Positions 42,963 to 48,705 of a DNA stretch of 64,000 bases are shown here, in pieces (within the stretch, counting starts at the first letter, position 1; the number at the start of each line of letters is the position of its first letter). The notes below the pieces were generated by a model. It had not been told where the DNA came from, made no database searches, and saw only the letters and a program-made list of their open reading frames with translations. The position numbers were made by a program, and so were the translations under genes. The DNA is taken from positions 117,079 through 181,078 of the forward strand of contig LBVU01000002.1 of the NCBI GenBank assembly GCA_000993205.1. Reading direction: 5' to 3'. This DNA comes from Candidatus Woesebacteria bacterium GW2011_GWB1_39_10. Lineage in GTDB: Bacteria; Patescibacteriota; Microgenomatia; UBA8517.

Positions 42963-43586
42963 CTTTTTCACATTGACTTACATGGTACAATTATATTGAC
43001 CCTGTTAAAGAAGGATGCGGTCGGAATTTCCTGATCAAGTATATTCTAAAATGGGAGGACGGAGTCCGTTAAGTAATGCGCAAGCTAGCTTGATGGCAGT
43101 TCACCCACCTGGTTTTTCCAGGAATATCGCCGTACTTTTGATAGCAGGGTCACTTTTTTGCCTGAGAACAAAAACAGGGGTCAATCTTTTTCAAAACAAG
43201 GCACTTCGGCATTGTACAAGAGCGAAGTGCCAAAGAGGATATTATGCCTGTGTAAGTTTATTTAGGCTTTGGTTGCAGGAATCTCTGTCGGTGTACTGGG
43301 GAGGGAAGTTAGCTGTACTTGTTTTAATTGTACCTGCCTTTGCCTAGCTAATTCGGCGGTCCTGTAATCTAGAACTTTTTCCATATCTTGTTTGTTTTGA
43401 CCTTTCGGTTTTTTAATGGCCGTCTTGGACAGATCCGAAAGGGTTTGAGTACACCGAGGCGGCCATTTAAGATCTAAAAAGAAAATTTTTGTGTTTTTGG
43501 GTACAAAGGAATTCTCGCCGACACTTTGCGGAGGCGCAGGCTTTAGGCCGAGCCGGCCTGCCCTGCCGATCTGACTTCCATTTCAG

Positions 43587-43671
43587 TGCCAAGAGCAGGA
43601 TTCGAACCTACGTAGCCCTTCCGGGCGCCTGATTTACAGTCAAGTGCGTTTGACCACTCCGCCATCTTGGC
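43587..43671 (-). tRNA. tRNA-Tyr (anticodon GTA), class II with long variable arm
   Basis: Manual fold: acceptor GCCAAGA/TCTTGGC, anticodon loop CTGTAAA, variable hairpin GCCC-GGAA-GGGC, T-loop GGTTCGAATCC. Confidence 0.8.
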
Positions 43672-43673
43672 AT

Positions 43674-44306
43674 CTAATTCAAAAGGTCAGTAGCAATTAT
43701 ATCAATATCTAAAAGGATTTGCCTTAACAATCTGGTATCGTAATATCTTACATGGACAAGTCCGTACGGCATTTTCCCCACTTTTTCGGTTTTAAAATCT
43801 CTACGTACATATGGCTTAGAAAATTGTTTTTGAGGAATATTCAATTTCTCCGACCAGTATTCAATTAATTTGCCACTATTCTGATTGGAAAAACAGTAAA
43901 TATATACTCTCAATCGCTTTTCATTCACAAAGTAAATTTTTCTAAGCATTCTAGTAAATATTAAGAGCATTTTCTCGTTACTGTTAGCAAAATCGACAGC
44001 CGCTTTGTTTGCTTTTGACCCTTCGGCCCAGTATAGCGACAGCCCACTAATAAATAATTTTTGTAAGTTTATATCTAACTTATCTATTCTCTTAAAAGAC
44101 AGAGGGCTTCTCTCAAATTGAATTTTAATAGTTTCTGACGGTTTTCTTCTTTTGATTTTATTTCGCCTCATAAAACTAATAACTCTCCAAACAGAAATAT
44201 TATATTTCTGGGCAATTTCATTGGCACTCAAGCCGAACTTATTGTAAAGCTTCAATACATCAATCTTGTCAAGCATACCAGATCTATGGTATTCTCCACT
44301 TGCCAT
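43674..44306 (-). CDS. HTH DNA-binding protein, possibly LAGLIDADG-like homing endonuclease
   Basis: N-terminal HTH GLSANEIAQKYNISVWRVISFM; segment LFISGLSLYWAEGSK weakly resembles a LAGLIDADG motif; located between tRNA genes. Confidence 0.4.
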   Translation of the reverse strand: MASGEYHRSGMLDKIDVLKLYNKFGLSANEIAQKYNISVWRVISFMRRNKIKRRKPSETIKIQFERSPLSFKRIDKLDINLQKLFISGLSLYWAEGSKANKAAVDFANSNEKMLLIFTRMLRKIYFVNEKRLRVYIYCFSNQNSGKLIEYWSEKLNIPQKQFSKPYVRRDFKTEKVGKMPYGLVHVRYYDTRLLRQILLDIDIIATDLLN

Positions 44307-44402
44307 ACTGTCAACTATTCAAATTTGATATAATTCACACTACATGCAGGGATAAACAAGTTTCGTCTAACGACGTAAACAAAGTTTGTCCCAGCATTGC
44401 AT

Positions 44403-44474
44403 GCCGGGATAGCTCAACGGTGGAGCAACGCTTTTGTAAAGCGAAGGTTGAAGGTTCAAATCCTTTTCCCGGCT
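44403..44474 (+). tRNA. tRNA-Thr (anticodon TGT)
   Basis: Manual fold: acceptor GCCGGGA/TCCCGGC, D-arm GCTC..GAGC, anticodon loop TTTGTAA, T-loop GGTTCAAATCC. Confidence 0.7.
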
Positions 44475-44574
44475 CTTGGCAAACTTTCATTCCACCCACT
44501 CCGGCTGGGCAAAGTTTTGCATATAAACCGACTTCCATAACCACGTACACATTTTTTGGTATAATTGAGTCCGC

Positions 44575-44646
44575 GCCTGGGTAGCTCAGTGGTAGAGCAC
44601 CAACTTGGTAAGTTGGGGGTCGTGAGTTCAATCCTCACCTCAGGCT
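44575..44646 (+). tRNA. tRNA-Thr (anticodon GGT)
   Basis: Manual fold: acceptor GCCTGGG/CTCAGGC, D-arm GCTCAGTGGTAGAGC, anticodon stem CCAAC/GTTGG loop TTGGTAA, T-loop GAGTTCAATCCTCAC. Confidence 0.75.
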
Positions 44647-44666
44647 CAAAATGAAGTCTCAAAAAC

Positions 44667-45092
44667 TTACTTTTCCTCAATGGATCTCAAAACAACATAT
44701 TTGAGATCTCCTTCGTCGTCGTTCACCCTAACATAATCAACTCCGTGTATAACCGATTTCGCTCCCCATTCGTCCTTACCCCTCGGAGTTAGATTACCAT
44801 TTTGAAAAGTATGTTCAATTTGCATCAAAAGCTCTTTTGATTCTCCCGGTTTCCAAAGTGCTATATCAGCGTCAATTTCACCCTTCAAAAAAACCTGCTT
44901 CAAACTCTCGGCTATATTTTCAACCCTAGAACTATCTTTAACCGAGCCAACACCGCCGCTGGGCAATGTCACAGCTAAGGCCTCCGGGACTCTTAACCCC
45001 TCCTCCACAAAGACTTCATCTTTAACGGACACTTTTTTAAGCCATTCCGGGGTTGCCGTGTCAGACATATATTTATTGTATAACATGAACAT
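44667..45092 (-). CDS. hypothetical protein (141 aa)
   Basis: ORF only. Confidence 0.45.
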   Translation of the reverse strand: MFMLYNKYMSDTATPEWLKKVSVKDEVFVEEGLRVPEALAVTLPSGGVGSVKDSSRVENIAESLKQVFLKGEIDADIALWKPGESKELLMQIEHTFQNGNLTPRGKDEWGAKSVIHGVDYVRVNDDEGDLKYVVLRSIEEK

Positions 45093-45126
45093 TGCGGTAT
45101 TGCAAATTTAAGTATAAAATAGGCAC

Positions 45127-45312
45127 ATGGCAAAAAAGGGGGCGCGAGAACTTGTGAGCATGATTTGTTCCGTCTGTAAAAATCAAAATTACATTACAAA
45201 CAGGAATAAGGTAAATATGGATGTTAAAGGCAAAGGCAAGCTCCAAATCAAGAAATATTGTAAATTTTGCCGCAAATCTCAACTTCACAAAGAAAGCTCC
45301 AAACTAAAGTAA
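45127..45312 (+). CDS. rpmG: 50S ribosomal protein L33
   Basis: CSVCKNQNY...CKFCRK zinc-ribbon pattern and size typical of L33. Confidence 0.85.
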   Translation: MAKKGARELVSMICSVCKNQNYITNRNKVNMDVKGKGKLQIKKYCKFCRKSQLHKESSKLK

Positions 45313-45963
45313 GATTTTTTCTCCCAACTTCCGAGCCTCATTTTCAAAAAACCTAATCATCTTCTGCCTATCAAGTTTGATTTTCATTCTGGGAAAATCT
45401 TCCAATTCATTCACCTTGAGTAAGTTCTTGACCAACTCAACCTCAGAAATCTTAATATCAAACTTTATTCTGTGAAGATCCAACGCGCGTTTGAGCCTCC
45501 ATTTTTTACGCTTCGCGATTTCATACAAATCAATAAAATCGCGCGCTTTTTTACGAAGTAAAATTGTTTCAACCTTATTTGCATAAATATCTTTTATTGA
45601 ATCTATTTTGACTCCTCTGAAATAACTTGGTTTCCCGAGCTGTGGAAATGAATAATAGACAAAATCGATTATCAGCTCTTCTCCGTTATTCCACTTAAGC
45701 TTAAACCCGTTCACATTAGTTTTTAATCTTTCGATTGTTGTATAACCCAATTCCTTTTTGGAGCTAAAGATGAAGTTTGCAACATCGACAAAGGTGAATT
45801 CTTCCGTGGAAAAAAAATCCAAATCTTCGGAATATCGGTGATTTAAATAATAACCAGCAAGAGCGGTTCCACCGGTTAAATAGAAATTGCTAAATTTTTT
45901 GTTTTGACCAACCAATCCAAGTAGTTGCTTCTGTCTGGTTGTAAACCAGGTTCTTTTTTCCAT
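45304..45963 (-). CDS. AbiEii/AbiGii-family nucleotidyltransferase (type IV toxin-antitoxin / abortive infection toxin-like)
   Basis: FYLTGGTALAGYYLNHRYSEDLDFFS matches the DUF1814/AbiEii G-G...S-E-D-[IL]-D-F signature. Confidence 0.75.
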   Translation of the reverse strand: MEKRTWFTTRQKQLLGLVGQNKKFSNFYLTGGTALAGYYLNHRYSEDLDFFSTEEFTFVDVANFIFSSKKELGYTTIERLKTNVNGFKLKWNNGEELIIDFVYYSFPQLGKPSYFRGVKIDSIKDIYANKVETILLRKKARDFIDLYEIAKRKKWRLKRALDLHRIKFDIKISEVELVKNLLKVNELEDFPRMKIKLDRQKMIRFFENEARKLGEKILL

Positions 45964-46166
45964 TTTCTTCCCCATACCAGGAATTCTATCGCCTTTTTGG
46001 TATCAATATCCAGGTCTTCCGAAATCTTACCCCAATTTTTGATAATCTCTGCCCTTTTTACCCTTTCCCCACCGTAAGTTAAAGCCTGCTTTATCCTCCA
46101 AAGTTTGTATTCTTTAGGATTGTTTTTCCTAAATAATTTTTCGTCCGTGTTCCAATTTACGATCAT
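45876..46166 (-). CDS. hypothetical small protein upstream of and overlapping AbiEii-like gene (possible cognate partner)
   Basis: 97-aa ORF starting at MIVNW after removing the part antisense to tRNA-Trp; overlaps AbiEii ORF by about 88 nt in another frame. Confidence 0.35.
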   Translation of the reverse strand: MIVNWNTDEKLFRKNNPKEYKLWRIKQALTYGGERVKRAEIIKNWGKISEDLDIDTKKAIEFLVWGRKWKKEPGLQPDRSNYLDWLVKTKNLAISI

Positions 46167-46199
46167 ATGCCATGATATAATATCACCTAGAAGATAGAT

Positions 46200-46273
46200 A
46201 GGCTCGTGATGAAATGGTATCATAGCGGTCTCCAAAACCGCTCTTTCAGGTTCGAATCCTGACGGGCCTGCCA
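46200..46273 (+). tRNA. tRNA-Trp (anticodon CCA) with encoded 3' CCA
   Basis: Manual fold: acceptor AGGCTCG/CGGGCCT, D-arm ATGA..TCAT, anticodon stem GCGGT/ACCGC loop CTCCAAA, T-arm TCAGGTTCGAATCCTGA, discriminator G then CCA. Confidence 0.8.
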
Positions 46274-46344
46274 ACAAAGTTCGACTGTGTCCTTCTGAAG
46301 CTTTAGCGGAAGAGGATTCTATCCACCCCTGCAAGATAGCCTGC

Positions 46345-47289
46345 TTACTCTTTAATCCCCAATAACTCATTAACCTGAATATTTACTCCCCGGTGGTCTT
46401 TTATACTTACCCTGTAGCCATATTGAGTTTTGGTTCTCTCGAATAATTCGGGTCGAGTGAGATAAATTGGGACAATCATGTCTTGGATACACATTTTCCC
46501 GTCTCGTTTTTCTGACTCAGGTAAGACTCCGGGCAGATTTCTTCCAACACTGCGGGATATTGCAGAAAGTCTTTGAAGTTGTCTGTTCCGTGTTTCTAGC
46601 CCCTCAGAGACAAACTTGGCAAGTGGGTCAGTCGATTTCTCCAAAACCTGGACCATTTCCCTTGTAACTCCATGCTCCAACACCCCACCCCAATCATAAA
46701 GTAAGGTTTGCCCTGAATCTCGTAGATAATCTAAGGCAGCTCGGTCTTGTTTTGTATTAAAACTCATTCCTTGCCCTTCTACATCCTCCGCCGGAGCGGT
46801 GATTACTATTTCGGATATTTTCTCAGCTAACCCTTTTTCTTTTGCCAACCTGACAACTTCAGCAAAGTCTGTAAAAGCACCCAATCCAACAAGTGTGATT
46901 GGTTCGGGAGAATTAGAAAGCAATTCGACAACTCTCTGTACGGCCTCCAGGTTTGGTTTTCTCGCCTCAACCGCACCTTGAGCTATCGGTGGAATACCCT
47001 CGCCCCAAGCATCCCTTACCCTTGATAGCGAGTTATAACTCGTCCGACCATCCCCGTTATTTGTAAAAATTGACATTATAAATAATGGGTTTAGTTTTTG
47101 GTCTTTCGTGGCTGTTCGGATCATAAACAAGGCTAACCCATCATCTCTTTCCTGCGGAGCTTCTTTAATTCCACCAAAATATGCACCCGAAGTTATATCT
47201 GTGGAGATAATTAACCTTTTTCTTATTTCACGCTTAACTTCCGGGGTAATCTGTGATTCCTCAATCGGAATTTCACCAACCTCACCCAT
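46345..47289 (-). CDS. hypothetical protein (314 aa); weak resemblance to nucleoside hydrolase N-terminal Asp cluster
   Basis: ORF; LIISTDITSG...ERDDGLAL only loosely like DxDxxxDD of IU-nucleoside hydrolases. Confidence 0.45.
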   Translation of the reverse strand: MGEVGEIPIEESQITPEVKREIRKRLIISTDITSGAYFGGIKEAPQERDDGLALFMIRTATKDQKLNPLFIMSIFTNNGDGRTSYNSLSRVRDAWGEGIPPIAQGAVEARKPNLEAVQRVVELLSNSPEPITLVGLGAFTDFAEVVRLAKEKGLAEKISEIVITAPAEDVEGQGMSFNTKQDRAALDYLRDSGQTLLYDWGGVLEHGVTREMVQVLEKSTDPLAKFVSEGLETRNRQLQRLSAISRSVGRNLPGVLPESEKRDGKMCIQDMIVPIYLTRPELFERTKTQYGYRVSIKDHRGVNIQVNELLGIKE

Positions 47290-47416: not shown

Positions 47417-47680
47417 ATGTCTAACACACAAGCAACACAGGTTAAGATAACTCTCCCAGACGAATTATATCTGCATCTTAGAAGTAGGGCTGAAAGGTTT
47501 GGTCTAAATTTGGCAGCTTACATTAGGAACCTTATTATTAACGATGTTAAGGGTGTTGATATTCCTGTTTTTAAAATGAGCGAAGAGAGAGAAAAAATAG
47601 CTTTAAAAGCGTTGAAAGATTATAAGAGCGGAAAAACCAAGGTGGTAGACAATCTAGATAACTATCTTGCCAACCTGTAA
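47417..47680 (+). CDS. ribbon-helix-helix (CopG/ParD-like) antitoxin
   Basis: KITLPDELYLHLRSRAERFGLNLAAYIRNLI is an RHH motif; 14-nt overlap with downstream toxin gene. Confidence 0.7.
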   Translation: MSNTQATQVKITLPDELYLHLRSRAERFGLNLAAYIRNLIINDVKGVDIPVFKMSEEREKIALKALKDYKSGKTKVVDNLDNYLANL

Positions 47681-47945
47681 GGAAATGAATATCAGGACTA
47701 CAACCTATTTTGACAAAAATCTCTCAAAGAAAATAAGAAAAAACCCTCAACTTAAAGCAAAAGTTAAAAAACAAATTGAACTATTAAGGGAAAATTTTCG
47801 TCATCCTTCCCTCAGACTTCACAAACTAACCGGAAAAAGAGCGCAGGAATATTCCTTCTGGATAGAAGGAAACTTAAGAATTACTTTTGTGATTATTGGT
47901 AATGCAATTCTGTTTACAGATATTATTACCCACGACGAATATTGA
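47667..47945 (+). CDS. RelE/ParE-family toxin
   Basis: HPSLRLHKLTGKRAQEYSFWIEGNLRITFVIIGNAILFTDIITHDEY matches the RelE/ParE C-terminal pattern. Confidence 0.7.
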   Translation: MPTCKEMNIRTTTYFDKNLSKKIRKNPQLKAKVKKQIELLRENFRHPSLRLHKLTGKRAQEYSFWIEGNLRITFVIIGNAILFTDIITHDEY

Positions 47946-47949
47946 TTTA

Positions 47950-48705
47950 TTAGGCTTTTGTCATCCCCAACTTTTTGGGCCAGGAGTCGCCCTTCGGAGT
48001 AATTACAAACATCATTCTTTTGTCAGTCACGGTACGGGGTTTGGAAGTTCCCCCAACTTTAATCTCGTTTGAATCCCACCAGCGCCTTTGAAAATCCTTG
48101 ATTCTAAATCTTCTATCCACCCCTGCGAACTTATGGAACGGGTCTGCAATCCGAATATAGCCCCGTTCTTTATCTACCCGAGTAATAACGCCGTAATGCC
48201 CATCGTCTTCGTCGGCGTCTTCATAAAATACCCCTTGCCACTCCACACCCACAGGAAACCTGTATTTATTTACAATTGCGTCCAAATCGCTGATTTTAGA
48301 ATTTGCCTTTTTCCAGAAAGAAAAACCCCCTTTGCCGGCTATTTTGGCGCCGCGCGCCAAATCTTTTATGCTCATTCCCCATTTCCTGATTTTCTTCTGC
48401 GCGCGGAGTGAGACTACAATCCTCTTCTGAAAAGTTTTAACACCCAAGAAAGAAAACAACATAGTGATCACCGCCGGCCCACAGCTATAAATATCAACCT
48501 GACGTAATCTTGACATGCCGGGAAACGCAACCCCGCGGATTCTGTCTTCTAAGGCTAAAAGACGTCTAATGACCTCCCGAATTGTCTTATTTGTATTGAT
48601 TTCCATTTGGCCCAATTGTACGGCCATTAAACAAATTTGTCTACTGAAGATTCTTGGCGTATTTGGAAAGAAGACTCCCCAAAGTTTCCGAAAATTCCAC
48701 GCCAT
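47950..48705 (-). CDS. papain-like cysteine peptidase/acyltransferase, peptidase C39-like fold
   Basis: RQVDIYSCGPAVITML (Q...CGxA) plus downstream DDGHYGVITRVD (His) resemble the C39 / BtrH-like catalytic arrangement. Confidence 0.55.
   Translation of the reverse strand: MAWNFRKLWGVFFPNTPRIFSRQICLMAVQLGQMEINTNKTIREVIRRLLALEDRIRGVAFPGMSRLRQVDIYSCGPAVITMLFSFLGVKTFQKRIVVSLRAQKKIRKWGMSIKDLARGAKIAGKGGFSFWKKANSKISDLDAIVNKYRFPVGVEWQGVFYEDADEDDGHYGVITRVDKERGYIRIADPFHKFAGVDRRFRIKDFQRRWWDSNEIKVGGTSKPRTVTDKRMMFVITPKGDSWPKKLGMTKA

What the first reader, a model, noticed from the sequence alone, without database searches (positions are those of the whole stretch)
45304..46166. AbiEii-like nucleotidyltransferase toxin gene wedged between rpmG and tRNA-Trp
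The protein has FYLTGGTALAGYYLNHRYSEDLDFFS, the DUF1814/AbiEii signature of type IV toxin-antitoxin and abortive-infection systems. The expected large AbiEi antitoxin is absent. The only upstream partner is a 97-aa ORF overlapping it by about 88 nt, whose longer track version is an artefact running antisense through tRNA-Trp. Either this is a minimal variant pairing or a decaying system.
Basis: partly seen in the sequence, partly recalled or inferred. Interest (0 to 1): 0.5.

Follow-up and report, generated by a model that had tools for sequence, protein, structure and literature searches.

The report
Short AbiEii toxin with small partner
This is an intact two-gene cassette in a Candidatus Woesebacteria genome: a compact AbiEii/DUF1814 nucleotidyltransferase "toxin" preceded by a small, unannotated helical protein that always accompanies it and probably replaces the usual large AbiEi antitoxin.

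Summary
ORF 45304-45975(-) matches Pfam AbiEii (60 bits against a cut-off of 22.5), keeps all four catalytic motifs and models as a DUF1814 nucleotidyltransferase. No AbiEi was found among the neighbouring ORFs scanned. The 96-aa upstream ORF (45876-46166) is real, and its 164-aa version running antisense through tRNA-Trp is an artefact.

The system is not decaying. The small ORF belongs to a family of about 65-aa proteins with no Pfam, NCBIfam, PADLOC, PHROG or PDB match. A member lies directly upstream, on the same strand, of the short (~220 aa) AbiEii in all 91 loci examined, mostly Patescibacteria. The two proteins co-diverge (r=0.68). The cassette sits in unrelated neighbourhoods, has low GC here, and usually carries a -10 box 6 nt before the start codon, which suggests a leaderless mRNA.

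In the window's subclade the small protein has gained a C-terminal tail that overlaps the AbiEii start by 88-160 nt. AbiEii third-codon positions are conserved only where the overlap exists, which indicates real dual coding.

Best reading: a minimal toxin-antitoxin or abortive-infection module resembling MenA1-MenT1. The small protein would neutralise the enzyme by binding it, possibly by inducing auto-phosphorylation of invariant Ser49. Toxicity and neutralisation are inferred, not shown. I rate it a new variant of a known kind, of moderate interest.

The parts
45304..45975 (-). Short AbiEii/DUF1814 nucleotidyltransferase gene. It is 223 aa from the first ATG (45975). The likely true start is the ATG at 45963 (219 aa), which aligns with the starts of homologues and is preceded by GGGGAAG. 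In 223-aa numbering the motifs are G35-G36, R47-Y-S49-E-D51-L-D53, D104, K134...R141, R145-D146-x-x-D149.
   Evidence: Pfam AbiEii at 60 bits. There are 6733 homologues, mostly 218-225 aa. Invariant columns are listed. The AlphaFold model has pLDDT 93.3. Its best PDB folds are JHP933, MenT4 and MenT1.
45876..46166 (-). Small partner gene of 96 aa. It has a conserved ~66-aa helical core (MIVNWNTDEK...YKLWRIKQ...YGGE...NW...LDID...EFLVW) plus a subclade-specific 30-aa C-terminal tail (GRKWKKEPGLQPDRSNYLDWLVKTKNLAISI). It is the putative antitoxin.
   Evidence: Homologues are at 53-79% identity. The family profile finds 1359 proteins, all 'hypothetical' with no Pfam domain. A member lies upstream of AbiEii in 91 of 91 loci. 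The model has pLDDT 76.7 and is all-helical.
45876..45963 (-). Dual-coding overlap of 88 nt (100 nt if AbiEii starts at 45975). The AbiEii frame is -1 relative to the small-protein frame. The most strongly constrained part is 45919-45963.
   Evidence: Read from the sequence. AbiEii third-codon-position identity over codons 1-15 is 0.68-0.86 in the long-overlap clade and 0.34-0.35 in clades with 22 nt of overlap or less. It is about 0.33-0.38 elsewhere in the gene in all clades.
46173..46185 (.). Palindrome TGATATAATATCA / TGATATTATATCA. On the + strand it is a perfect extended -10 (TGnTATAAT) 18 nt before tRNA-Trp. On the - strand it is an extended -10-like TATTAT (46182-46177) ending 10 nt before the small ORF's ATG. 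It is the candidate promoter of the cassette, giving a near-leaderless mRNA.
   Evidence: Read from the sequence. Family-wide, 60 of 76 loci have a -10-like hexamer ending 4-13 nt before the ATG, with a peak at 6 nt (41 hexamer hits). This compares with 21% at control ORF starts. This is a consensus match only. No transcript data were available.
46167..46370 (-). Spurious 5' extension of the small ORF (the 164-aa version), running antisense through tRNA-Trp. It is not part of the gene.
   Evidence: tRNA-Trp is at 46200-46273 on the + strand. All homologues start at the Met equivalent to 46166.

Best explanation
This is an intact, self-contained two-gene toxin-antitoxin or abortive-infection-type cassette.

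The downstream gene encodes a compact (~220 aa) DUF1814/AbiEii nucleotidyltransferase. By homology with AbiEii and MenT toxins, it would add nucleotides to tRNA 3' ends and arrest translation.

The upstream gene encodes a small, basic, all-helical protein of a previously unannotated family. It takes the place of the large AbiEi antitoxin. I infer that it neutralises the enzyme by direct binding. As shown for the unrelated small antitoxin MenA1 and for AbiEi, it may do so by inducing auto-phosphorylation of the Ser two residues before the first catalytic Asp (here invariant Ser49).

The pair is probably transcribed from its own extended -10 promoter as a leaderless or nearly leaderless bicistronic mRNA, with translation coupled through the overlap. 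In the window's subclade the small protein has gained a selected C-terminal tail encoded in a second frame over the first ~15-30 codons of the toxin gene.

Shown here: gene integrity, family membership of the nucleotidyltransferase, intact catalytic motifs, obligate synteny and co-divergence of the pair, unrelated flanking genes, and the dual-coding constraint.

Inferred only: toxicity, the tRNA target, the antitoxin role, the phosphorylation mechanism and leaderless transcription.
For: The AbiEii profile match is well above the Pfam cut-off, with PADLOC AbiEii models also matching.

Motifs I-IV as defined by Dy et al. 2014 (PMC3985639, read) are invariant in the alignment: G35, G36, R47, D51, D53, K134, R145, D146, D149.

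Ser49 is invariant. It sits in the same R-x-S/T-x-D register as the phosphoacceptors AbiEii R63/T65/D67, MenT1 R37/T39/D41 and MenT3 R76/S78 (papers read).

The model has pLDDT 93.3. It matches the DUF1814 structures JHP933 (E about 1e-6), MenT4 (4.5e-4) and MenT1, and JHP933 by sequence at 2e-7.

The small ORF is under protein-level conservation. It lies directly upstream on the same strand in 91 of 91 loci. In 42 of 81 distinct pairs the overlap with the aligned AbiEii start is 0-25 nt.

The mirror-tree correlation is r=0.68, with 0 of 2000 Mantel permutations reaching it.

Only 2.1% of locus pairs share any homologous neighbour. Cassette GC is 35.5% against 40.3% for the window, in the lowest 1% of same-size windows.

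A -10 box ends 4-13 nt before the ATG in 60 of 76 loci (79%) against 21% at control ORF starts. An SD-like motif is present in only 10.5%.

There is a precedent for a DUF1814 toxin neutralised by an unrelated 68-aa antitoxin: MenA1-MenT1 (PMC10435456, PMC11375011).
Against: There are no experimental data for any member of this subfamily.

The small protein has no detectable similarity to MenA1, AbiEi or any solved structure. Its antitoxin role therefore rests on position, size and co-inheritance only.

Its model is only moderately confident (pLDDT 76.7).

It is basic (median pI 9.6). That is unusual for a protein proposed to occlude an electropositive tRNA-binding groove. It would also fit a nucleic-acid-binding regulator.

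The cassette was not found in IMG/VR viral contigs or PHROGs, so nothing here links it directly to phage.

Inverted repeats upstream are only weakly enriched.
Confidence: 0.62

Rival explanations
1. It is a decaying or orphan AbiEii. The AbiEi antitoxin has been lost, and the upstream ORF is a meaningless leftover or chance ORF.
For: No AbiEi was found among the neighbouring ORFs scanned. The upstream ORF has no family match. The cassette sits in a variable, tRNA-rich stretch.
Against: Both ORFs are intact and all catalytic motifs are invariant. About 220 aa is the normal length of thousands of homologues. The small ORF is conserved as protein and present in 91 of 91 loci. The syntenic relative L004 keeps the pair at the same locus.
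Confidence: 0.03
2. It is one gene, not two. The small ORF and AbiEii would be joined by a programmed -1 ribosomal frameshift, or a sequencing error, at the A6G run (45954-45959). The product would be a fusion protein with an N-terminal regulatory domain.
For: The AbiEii frame is -1 relative to the small ORF, and an AAAAAAG run lies at the start of the overlap. A few database proteins look like fusions: P0189 at 282 aa, plus P0156 and P0187.
Against: In most of the family the two ORFs are separate, with overlaps of 0-25 nt or small gaps. The A-run is not conserved within the subclade: P0125 and P0126 have KWKGE and L029 has KWHKE. The run is not in the canonical X XXY YYZ register. The small-protein frame remains conserved downstream of the run (EPGLRPDRSN), which a frameshift model does not require. 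The AbiEii Met aligns with homologue starts and has an SD-like GGGGAAG upstream. The apparent fusions lack the toxin N-terminus or its catalytic motifs and look like frame errors or deletions.
Confidence: 0.04
3. It is not a toxin-antitoxin pair. It would be a non-toxic nucleotidyltransferase, for example an RNA or small-molecule modifying enzyme, with a small specificity or regulatory subunit used in normal physiology by Patescibacteria.
For: Toxicity is untested. The family is very abundant in bacteria with reduced genomes. The small protein is basic, like many RNA-binding subunits. MenT2 is a DUF1814 protein with no detectable activity (PMC11375011).
Against: Flanking genes are unrelated between loci (2.1% of pairs share a neighbour). 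GC is atypically low. The operon is autonomous and leaderless-type, with the small gene first and overlapping the second. These are hallmarks of mobile toxin-antitoxin or defence cassettes, not of housekeeping genes. Catalytic and phosphoacceptor residues match those of the proven toxins.
Confidence: 0.12
4. The small protein is mainly a DNA-binding autorepressor of the cassette. It would be a helical DNA binder, and toxin control would occur at the level of transcription or through a host factor rather than by direct neutralisation.
For: The protein is basic and helical. The promoter -10 lies immediately next to the start codon, where a repressor could act. There is slight enrichment of inverted repeats upstream: mean best arm 5.24 against 4.64 in shuffles. 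In the window there is a 13-nt palindrome at the -10.
Confidence: 0.1

Closest known systems
MenA1-MenT1 (Rv0078B-Rv0078A) of Mycobacterium tuberculosis
   Same: A short DUF1814 nucleotidyltransferase toxin is preceded by a very small (68 aa) helical antitoxin that has no recognisable DNA-binding or kinase domain. The toxin has a Ser/Thr phosphoacceptor two residues before the catalytic Asp (T39 in MenT1, S49 here). Source: PMC10435456 and PMC11375011, read.
   Different: There is no sequence or fold similarity between the small proteins. MenA1 is one long helix plus a short one. The protein here is predicted as a bundle of five short helices. MenT1 is only a weak structural match (E=0.028, 10% identity). 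The MenAT1 paper identified only 21 menA1 genes, whereas this family has more than 1300 detectable members, mostly in Patescibacteria.
AbiE (AbiEi-AbiEii) of Streptococcus agalactiae and Lactococcus; MenAT3 and MenAT4
   Same: The toxin belongs to the same Pfam family (PF08843) with motifs I-IV intact. The operon is bicistronic, with the upstream partner overlapping the toxin gene (PMC3985639).
   Different: The partner is not a COG5340/AbiEi protein. There is no match to any Pfam family, AbiEi models included, or to any PADLOC AbiEi model in 60 members. It is about 65-96 aa rather than about 200-300 aa, and it lacks a recognisable winged-helix domain. The toxin is about 60-70 residues shorter than S. 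agalactiae AbiEii.
JHP933 of Helicobacter pylori (PDB 4O8S, 4OK0)
   Same: It is the closest solved structure and sequence to the nucleotidyltransferase (E=2e-7 by profile; Foldseek E about 1e-6, 20-22% identity). It has a similar size (~230 aa) and two-lobed architecture.
   Different: JHP933 is a plasticity-zone protein. The searches here give no information on any partner for it. Identity is only about 20%.

Membership tests
AbiEii / DUF1814 nucleotidyltransferase (Pfam PF08843) | Profile match above the curated gathering score | tested here: met
   60 bits against a cut-off of 22.5, E=4.3e-16, covering profile positions 8-212 of 238. PADLOC AbiEii models match down to E=1.1e-13.
AbiEii / DUF1814 nucleotidyltransferase (Pfam PF08843) | Pol-beta type motifs I and II (hG[G/S] ... 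R ... DhD) | tested here: met
   L-T-G35-G36-T and R47-Y-S-E-D51-L-D53 are invariant in 23 diverse homologues. Motif definition comes from PMC3985639.
AbiEii / DUF1814 nucleotidyltransferase (Pfam PF08843) | Family-specific motif III (K...R) and motif IV (+DxxD) | tested here: met
   N-K134-VETILL-R141 and R145-D146-F-I-D149 are present. K134, R145, D146 and D149 are invariant.
AbiEii / DUF1814 nucleotidyltransferase (Pfam PF08843) | Two-lobed fold: an alpha/beta nucleotidyltransferase lobe plus a C-terminal helical bundle | tested here: met
   The model (pLDDT 93.3) has strands at residues 31-124 followed by five helices at 127-222. Top PDB matches are JHP933, MenT4 and MenT1. This is a prediction, not a solved structure.
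AbiEii / DUF1814 nucleotidyltransferase (Pfam PF08843) | Growth-inhibiting nucleotidyl transfer to tRNA 3' ends | not testable with these tools
   This needs expression and tRNA assays.
AbiE system (AbiEi + AbiEii) | Cognate AbiEi antitoxin (COG5340: N-terminal winged helix plus C-terminal domain) encoded next to the toxin | tested here: not met
   The four flanking ORFs scanned give no AbiEi match. The upstream partner and 59 relatives match no Pfam family, AbiEi models included, and no PADLOC AbiEi model at E of 0.01 or better.
AbiE system (AbiEi + AbiEii) | Bicistronic operon with the antitoxin gene first | tested here: inconclusive
   The gene order, shared strand and overlap fit. Co-transcription is inferred from promoter-like motifs only.
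AbiE system (AbiEi + AbiEii) | Protection against phage by abortive infection | not testable with these tools
   There is no cultured host. No copies were found in viral contigs or PHROGs.
MenAT1-type (short antitoxin + DUF1814 toxin, induced auto-phosphorylation) | Small antitoxin homologous to MenA1 | tested here: not met
MenAT1-type (short antitoxin + DUF1814 toxin, induced auto-phosphorylation) | Ser/Thr phosphoacceptor two residues before the first catalytic Asp | tested here: met
   S49 is invariant in R47-Y-S49-E-D51. It has the same register as MenT1 R37/T39/D41, MenT3 R76/S78 and AbiEii R63/T65/D67. The register was compared by motif, not by structural superposition.
MenAT1-type (short antitoxin + DUF1814 toxin, induced auto-phosphorylation) | Antitoxin-dependent phosphorylation of the toxin | not testable with these tools
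   This needs co-expression followed by mass spectrometry or Phos-tag gels.

The most novel reading that the evidence does not exclude
The ~65-aa protein defines a new, structurally unassigned antitoxin family that is the standard partner of a compact AbiEii lineage across Patescibacteria. PADLOC has no model for the partner, so detection schemes that need an AbiEi hit would presumably miss these cassettes. The protein would switch the toxin off by inducing Ser49 auto-phosphorylation, as a third, independently evolved trigger after AbiEi/MenA3 and MenA1. In the window's subclade part of this antitoxin is encoded in a second reading frame inside the toxin gene. That would tie the two sequences together evolutionarily.
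Probability: 0.4. Interest if true: 0.6.

Novelty: new variant of a known kind. Interest (0 to 1): 0.45.

Why it matters
AbiE and MenAT systems are among the commonest toxin-antitoxin and phage-defence modules. Recent work argues for one unifying control mechanism, antitoxin-induced auto-phosphorylation, triggered by unrelated antitoxins.

A third unrelated trigger family would be a natural test of that idea. This one has more than a thousand detectable members, always paired with a minimal ~220-aa toxin.

It would also add a whole class of cassettes to the defence inventory of Patescibacteria. Their small genomes are thought to carry few recognised systems. Here the partner is annotated only as 'hypothetical protein'.

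The 88-160 nt dual-coding overlap, with a measurable selection signature, is also a clean small example of overprinting within a toxin-antitoxin operon.

Tried and rejected
1. Pseudogene or decay. Rejected: the ORFs are intact, the motifs are invariant and the length is normal for the family.

2. Frameshift fusion at the A6G run. Rejected as the main reading: the run is not conserved, and the two genes are separate in most of the family.

4. The AFDB50 fold library was unavailable.

I rebuilt the alignment from database proteins.

6. A viral-contig scan for the toxin found no relatives.

7. Looking for operator-like inverted repeats upstream gave only weak enrichment.

8. Literature searches for this pairing found only canonical AbiEi-AbiEii mentions. 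Terms tried: AbiEii with Patescibacteria; with candidate phyla radiation (CPR); with NetFlax; with orphan or small antitoxin.

Full report
**1. The observation**

The window comes from Candidatus Woesebacteria bacterium GW2011_GWA2_40_7. The AbiEii protein is 100% identical to the NCBI entry UU16_C0004G0022.

- ORF 45304..45975 on the minus strand (223 aa) carries the quoted FYLTGGTALAGYYLNHRYSEDLDFFS.
- It matches Pfam AbiEii (PF08843) at E=4.3e-16 and 60 bits, against a gathering score of 22.5, over profile positions 8-212 of 238. It also matches 20 PADLOC AbiEii models.
- rpmG lies at 45127..45312 on the plus strand (Ribosomal_L33, E=2.9e-14).
- tRNA-Trp lies at 46200..46273 on the plus strand.
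- The toxin gene and rpmG converge, and their 3' ends overlap by 9 nt.
- The upstream ORF is 96 aa (45876..46166). The 164-aa version starting at 46370 crosses tRNA-Trp antisense. All homologues start at the Met that corresponds to 46166, so the long version is an artefact.
- The overlap with AbiEii is 100 nt to the first ATG (45975). It is 88 nt to the ATG at 45963, which aligns with the start of most homologues and follows a GGGGAAG Shine-Dalgarno-like stretch.
- The NCBI start (203 aa) would remove an N-terminal helix that is conserved across the family (Q15 and L19 invariant) and confidently modelled. That start is probably too far downstream.

**2. The nucleotidyltransferase**

A search of 5.8 billion proteins gave 6733 relatives. 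The best 120 are mostly 218-225 aa, and those carrying a source name come from Patescibacteria. The 223-aa ORF is therefore full length for its lineage, not truncated.

All residues that Dy et al. 2014 showed to be needed for AbiEii toxicity are present and invariant in a 23-sequence alignment:
- motif I: G35-G36
- motif II: R47, D51, D53
- motif III: K134...R141
- motif IV: R145-D146-x-x-D149

Ser49 is also invariant. It lies in the register R-x-S/T-x-D, the position of the phosphoacceptor in MenT1 (T39), MenT3 (S78) and S. agalactiae AbiEii (T65) (PMC11375011 and bioRxiv 10.64898/2026.01.19.700257).

The AlphaFold model is confident (pLDDT 93.3). Its best PDB matches are the DUF1814 proteins JHP933, MenT4 and MenT1. 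JHP933 is also the only sequence-level PDB hit.

**3. The partner**

The 96-aa ORF has no match in Pfam, NCBIfam or PADLOC. It does have close homologues of 97-118 aa at 53-79% identity.

In contigs carrying those homologues, an AbiEii gene follows in every case where sequence is available.

I then fetched 80 loci encoding relatives of the short AbiEii from GTDB species-representative genomes. A profile of the small protein hit a same-strand ORF immediately upstream of AbiEii in 88 of 91 loci. Inspection showed the ORF in the remaining three as well. The association is therefore 91 of 91.

The family consensus is MYNWSTDxxxLKKxPEKYAIWKLEQLINFGLNGEKIxxxxLKKYWxKLxLDPxRKKxLxFLLW, about 63-70 aa. 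N4, W5, W23, Q27 and G32 are invariant in the 61-sequence alignment A4 (the 60-locus alignment A3 is).

A profile search finds 1359 proteins. All those named are 'hypothetical', and none has a Pfam domain. An exhaustive HMMER search of 1.84 billion cluster representatives found 75 representatives.

Sixty members scanned individually match no Pfam, NCBIfam or PADLOC family beyond single chance hits. The window's partner and two other members have no PHROG match. A profile of the 60 members finds nothing significant in the PDB.

The protein is basic, with a median pI of 9.6.

**4. Behaviour as a unit**

- Pairwise divergences of the small protein and of AbiEii across 81 distinct pairs correlate at r=0.68. 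None of 2000 Mantel permutations reached this value.
- Flanking genes are unrelated. Only 2.1% of locus pairs share any homologous ORF within 3.5 kb.
- In the window the cassette has 35.5% GC against 40.3% overall, in the lowest 1% of same-size windows.
- A close relative (L004) keeps the pair at the same tRNA-rich locus: tRNA-Trp, the pair, tRNA-Thr, tRNA-Thr, tRNA-Tyr. Other genes have been inserted or exchanged around it.
- The window holds one copy.
- No relatives were found in IMG/VR viral contigs.

These properties fit an autonomous toxin-antitoxin or defence cassette. They do not fit a housekeeping operon or a degrading remnant.

**5. Promoter**

In 60 of 76 loci a -10-like hexamer ends 4-13 nt before the small ORF's ATG.
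- There is a sharp peak at exactly 6 nt (41 hexamer hits).
- 45 of the 60 have an extended TG.
- At control ORF starts in the same loci the figures are 21% and 5.7%.
- Only 10.5% have a Shine-Dalgarno-like motif.

This suggests that the operon is typically made as a leaderless mRNA.

In the window the element is TATTAT (46182-46177), 10 nt before the ATG. It lies within the palindrome TGATATTATATCA (46173-46185). Read on the other strand, this palindrome is a perfect extended -10, 18 nt before tRNA-Trp. These are motif matches only. No transcript data were available.

**6. The long overlap**

In most of the family the small ORF ends within about 25 nt of the AbiEii start. In nested clades leading to the window, a C-terminal tail has been added (...W-x-KKWKKEPGLRPDRSN-F/Y...). 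The overlap grows to 52-67 nt, then 67-91 nt, then 148 nt.

The AbiEii frame is -1 relative to the small frame. Its third codon positions are therefore second positions of the small frame. Identity at AbiEii third positions over codons 1-15 depends on overlap class:

| Overlap class | Third-position identity, codons 1-15 |
|---|---|
| Long overlap (67-148 nt) | 0.68-0.86 |
| Intermediate (52-67 nt) | 0.54-0.60 |
| Short (22 nt or less) | 0.34-0.35 |
| Rest of the gene, all classes | about 0.33-0.38 |

In the long-overlap clade, the first 20-codon window scores 0.67. The mean elsewhere is 0.338 with sd 0.055 and a maximum of 0.49.

The extra constraint thus tracks the presence of the second frame. 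This is evidence that the first ~15 residues of the tail are selected as protein. The sample is small: five distinct sequences in the long-overlap clade.

I considered a -1 frameshift at the A6G run (45954-45959) and judge it unlikely. The run is not conserved, it is not in the canonical register, and the zero frame stays conserved beyond it.

**7. Mechanism**

By homology, the enzyme is expected to act like AbiEii and MenT toxins, which extend tRNA 3'-CCA ends and block aminoacylation (PMC10435456, PMC11375011, bioRxiv 10.64898/2026.01.19.700257).

By position, size, obligate pairing and co-divergence, the small protein is the best candidate for the antitoxin.

Three unrelated antitoxins (MenA1, MenA3, AbiEi) are reported to neutralise their toxins by inducing auto-phosphorylation of the residue equivalent to Ser49. 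That residue is invariant here, so the same mechanism is the most economical guess. Simple sequestration is the alternative.

None of this was tested.

**8. Comparison and novelty**

The nucleotidyltransferase is a clear member of the AbiEii/DUF1814 family.

The system fails the defining AbiE criterion of an AbiEi partner. It also fails homology to MenA1. It therefore works like MenAT1 (small antitoxin plus compact DUF1814 toxin) without being a member of that family.

I found no paper describing this partner family. Database names are all 'hypothetical protein'.

I rate it a new variant of a known kind, with moderate interest. The toxin side is ordinary. The partner family, its ubiquity in Patescibacteria, the leaderless-type promoter and the selected dual-coding tail are the new elements.

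Noticed in passing
window 47417-47945 (+): A second, unrelated toxin-antitoxin-like pair lies about 1.2 kb away. It is an 87-aa ORF with a weak NikA-like hit (E=0.0014) followed, with a 14-nt overlap, by a 92-aa ORF with a sub-threshold YafQ-toxin hit (E=2e-5, 25.2 bits against a cut-off of 30).
   Followed up: partly
window 46173-46185: The palindrome TGATATAATATCA reads as an extended -10 on both strands. It sits 18 nt before tRNA-Trp on the + strand and 10 nt before the small ORF's ATG on the - strand. It may be a shared bidirectional promoter core. This is motif evidence only.
   Followed up: partly
L011-L090 and other loci, 60 nt upstream of each small ORF: Across the family a -10-like hexamer ends exactly 6 nt before the start codon (41 hexamer hits across 76 loci). 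Shine-Dalgarno-like motifs are rare (10.5%). This suggests leaderless mRNAs for this cassette in Patescibacteria.
   Followed up: yes
window 45304-45312: rpmG (+) and the AbiEii gene (-) converge, and their ends overlap by 9 nt. The pattern scan lists no terminator-like hairpin between the two genes.
   Followed up: no
window 43586-46273; L004 3151-7377: The cassette lies in a stretch bounded by four tRNA genes (Tyr, Thr-tgt, Thr-ggt, Trp), which keep their order in the related contig L004. The protein genes between them differ. L004 has a 221-aa ORF with weak HTH hits (HTH_Tnp_IS630 just above its cut-off) and a PGA_cap gene. The window has a 210-aa and a 141-aa ORF with no Pfam match.
   Followed up: partly
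window 45915-45975: The public annotation of this AbiEii (203 aa, P0001) starts 20 codons downstream of the first ATG. This was presumably done to avoid the overlap. It removes a conserved, confidently modelled N-terminal helix.
   Followed up: yes
proteins P0189, P0156, P0187: A few database proteins join the small-protein core to an AbiEii-like C-terminus in one ORF (282, 210 and 174 aa). In P0189 the small-protein frame reads through in place of the toxin's N-terminal helix. P0156 and P0187 lack the catalytic motifs. They look like frame errors or deletion remnants rather than designed fusions.
   Followed up: partly
window 46345-47289 (-) and 47950-48705 (-): Neighbouring genes: a 314-aa ORF with a borderline inosine-uridine nucleoside hydrolase hit (34.3 bits against a cut-off of 34.2), and a 251-aa ORF with a Peptidase_C39 hit (25 bits against a cut-off of 22).
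   Followed up: no
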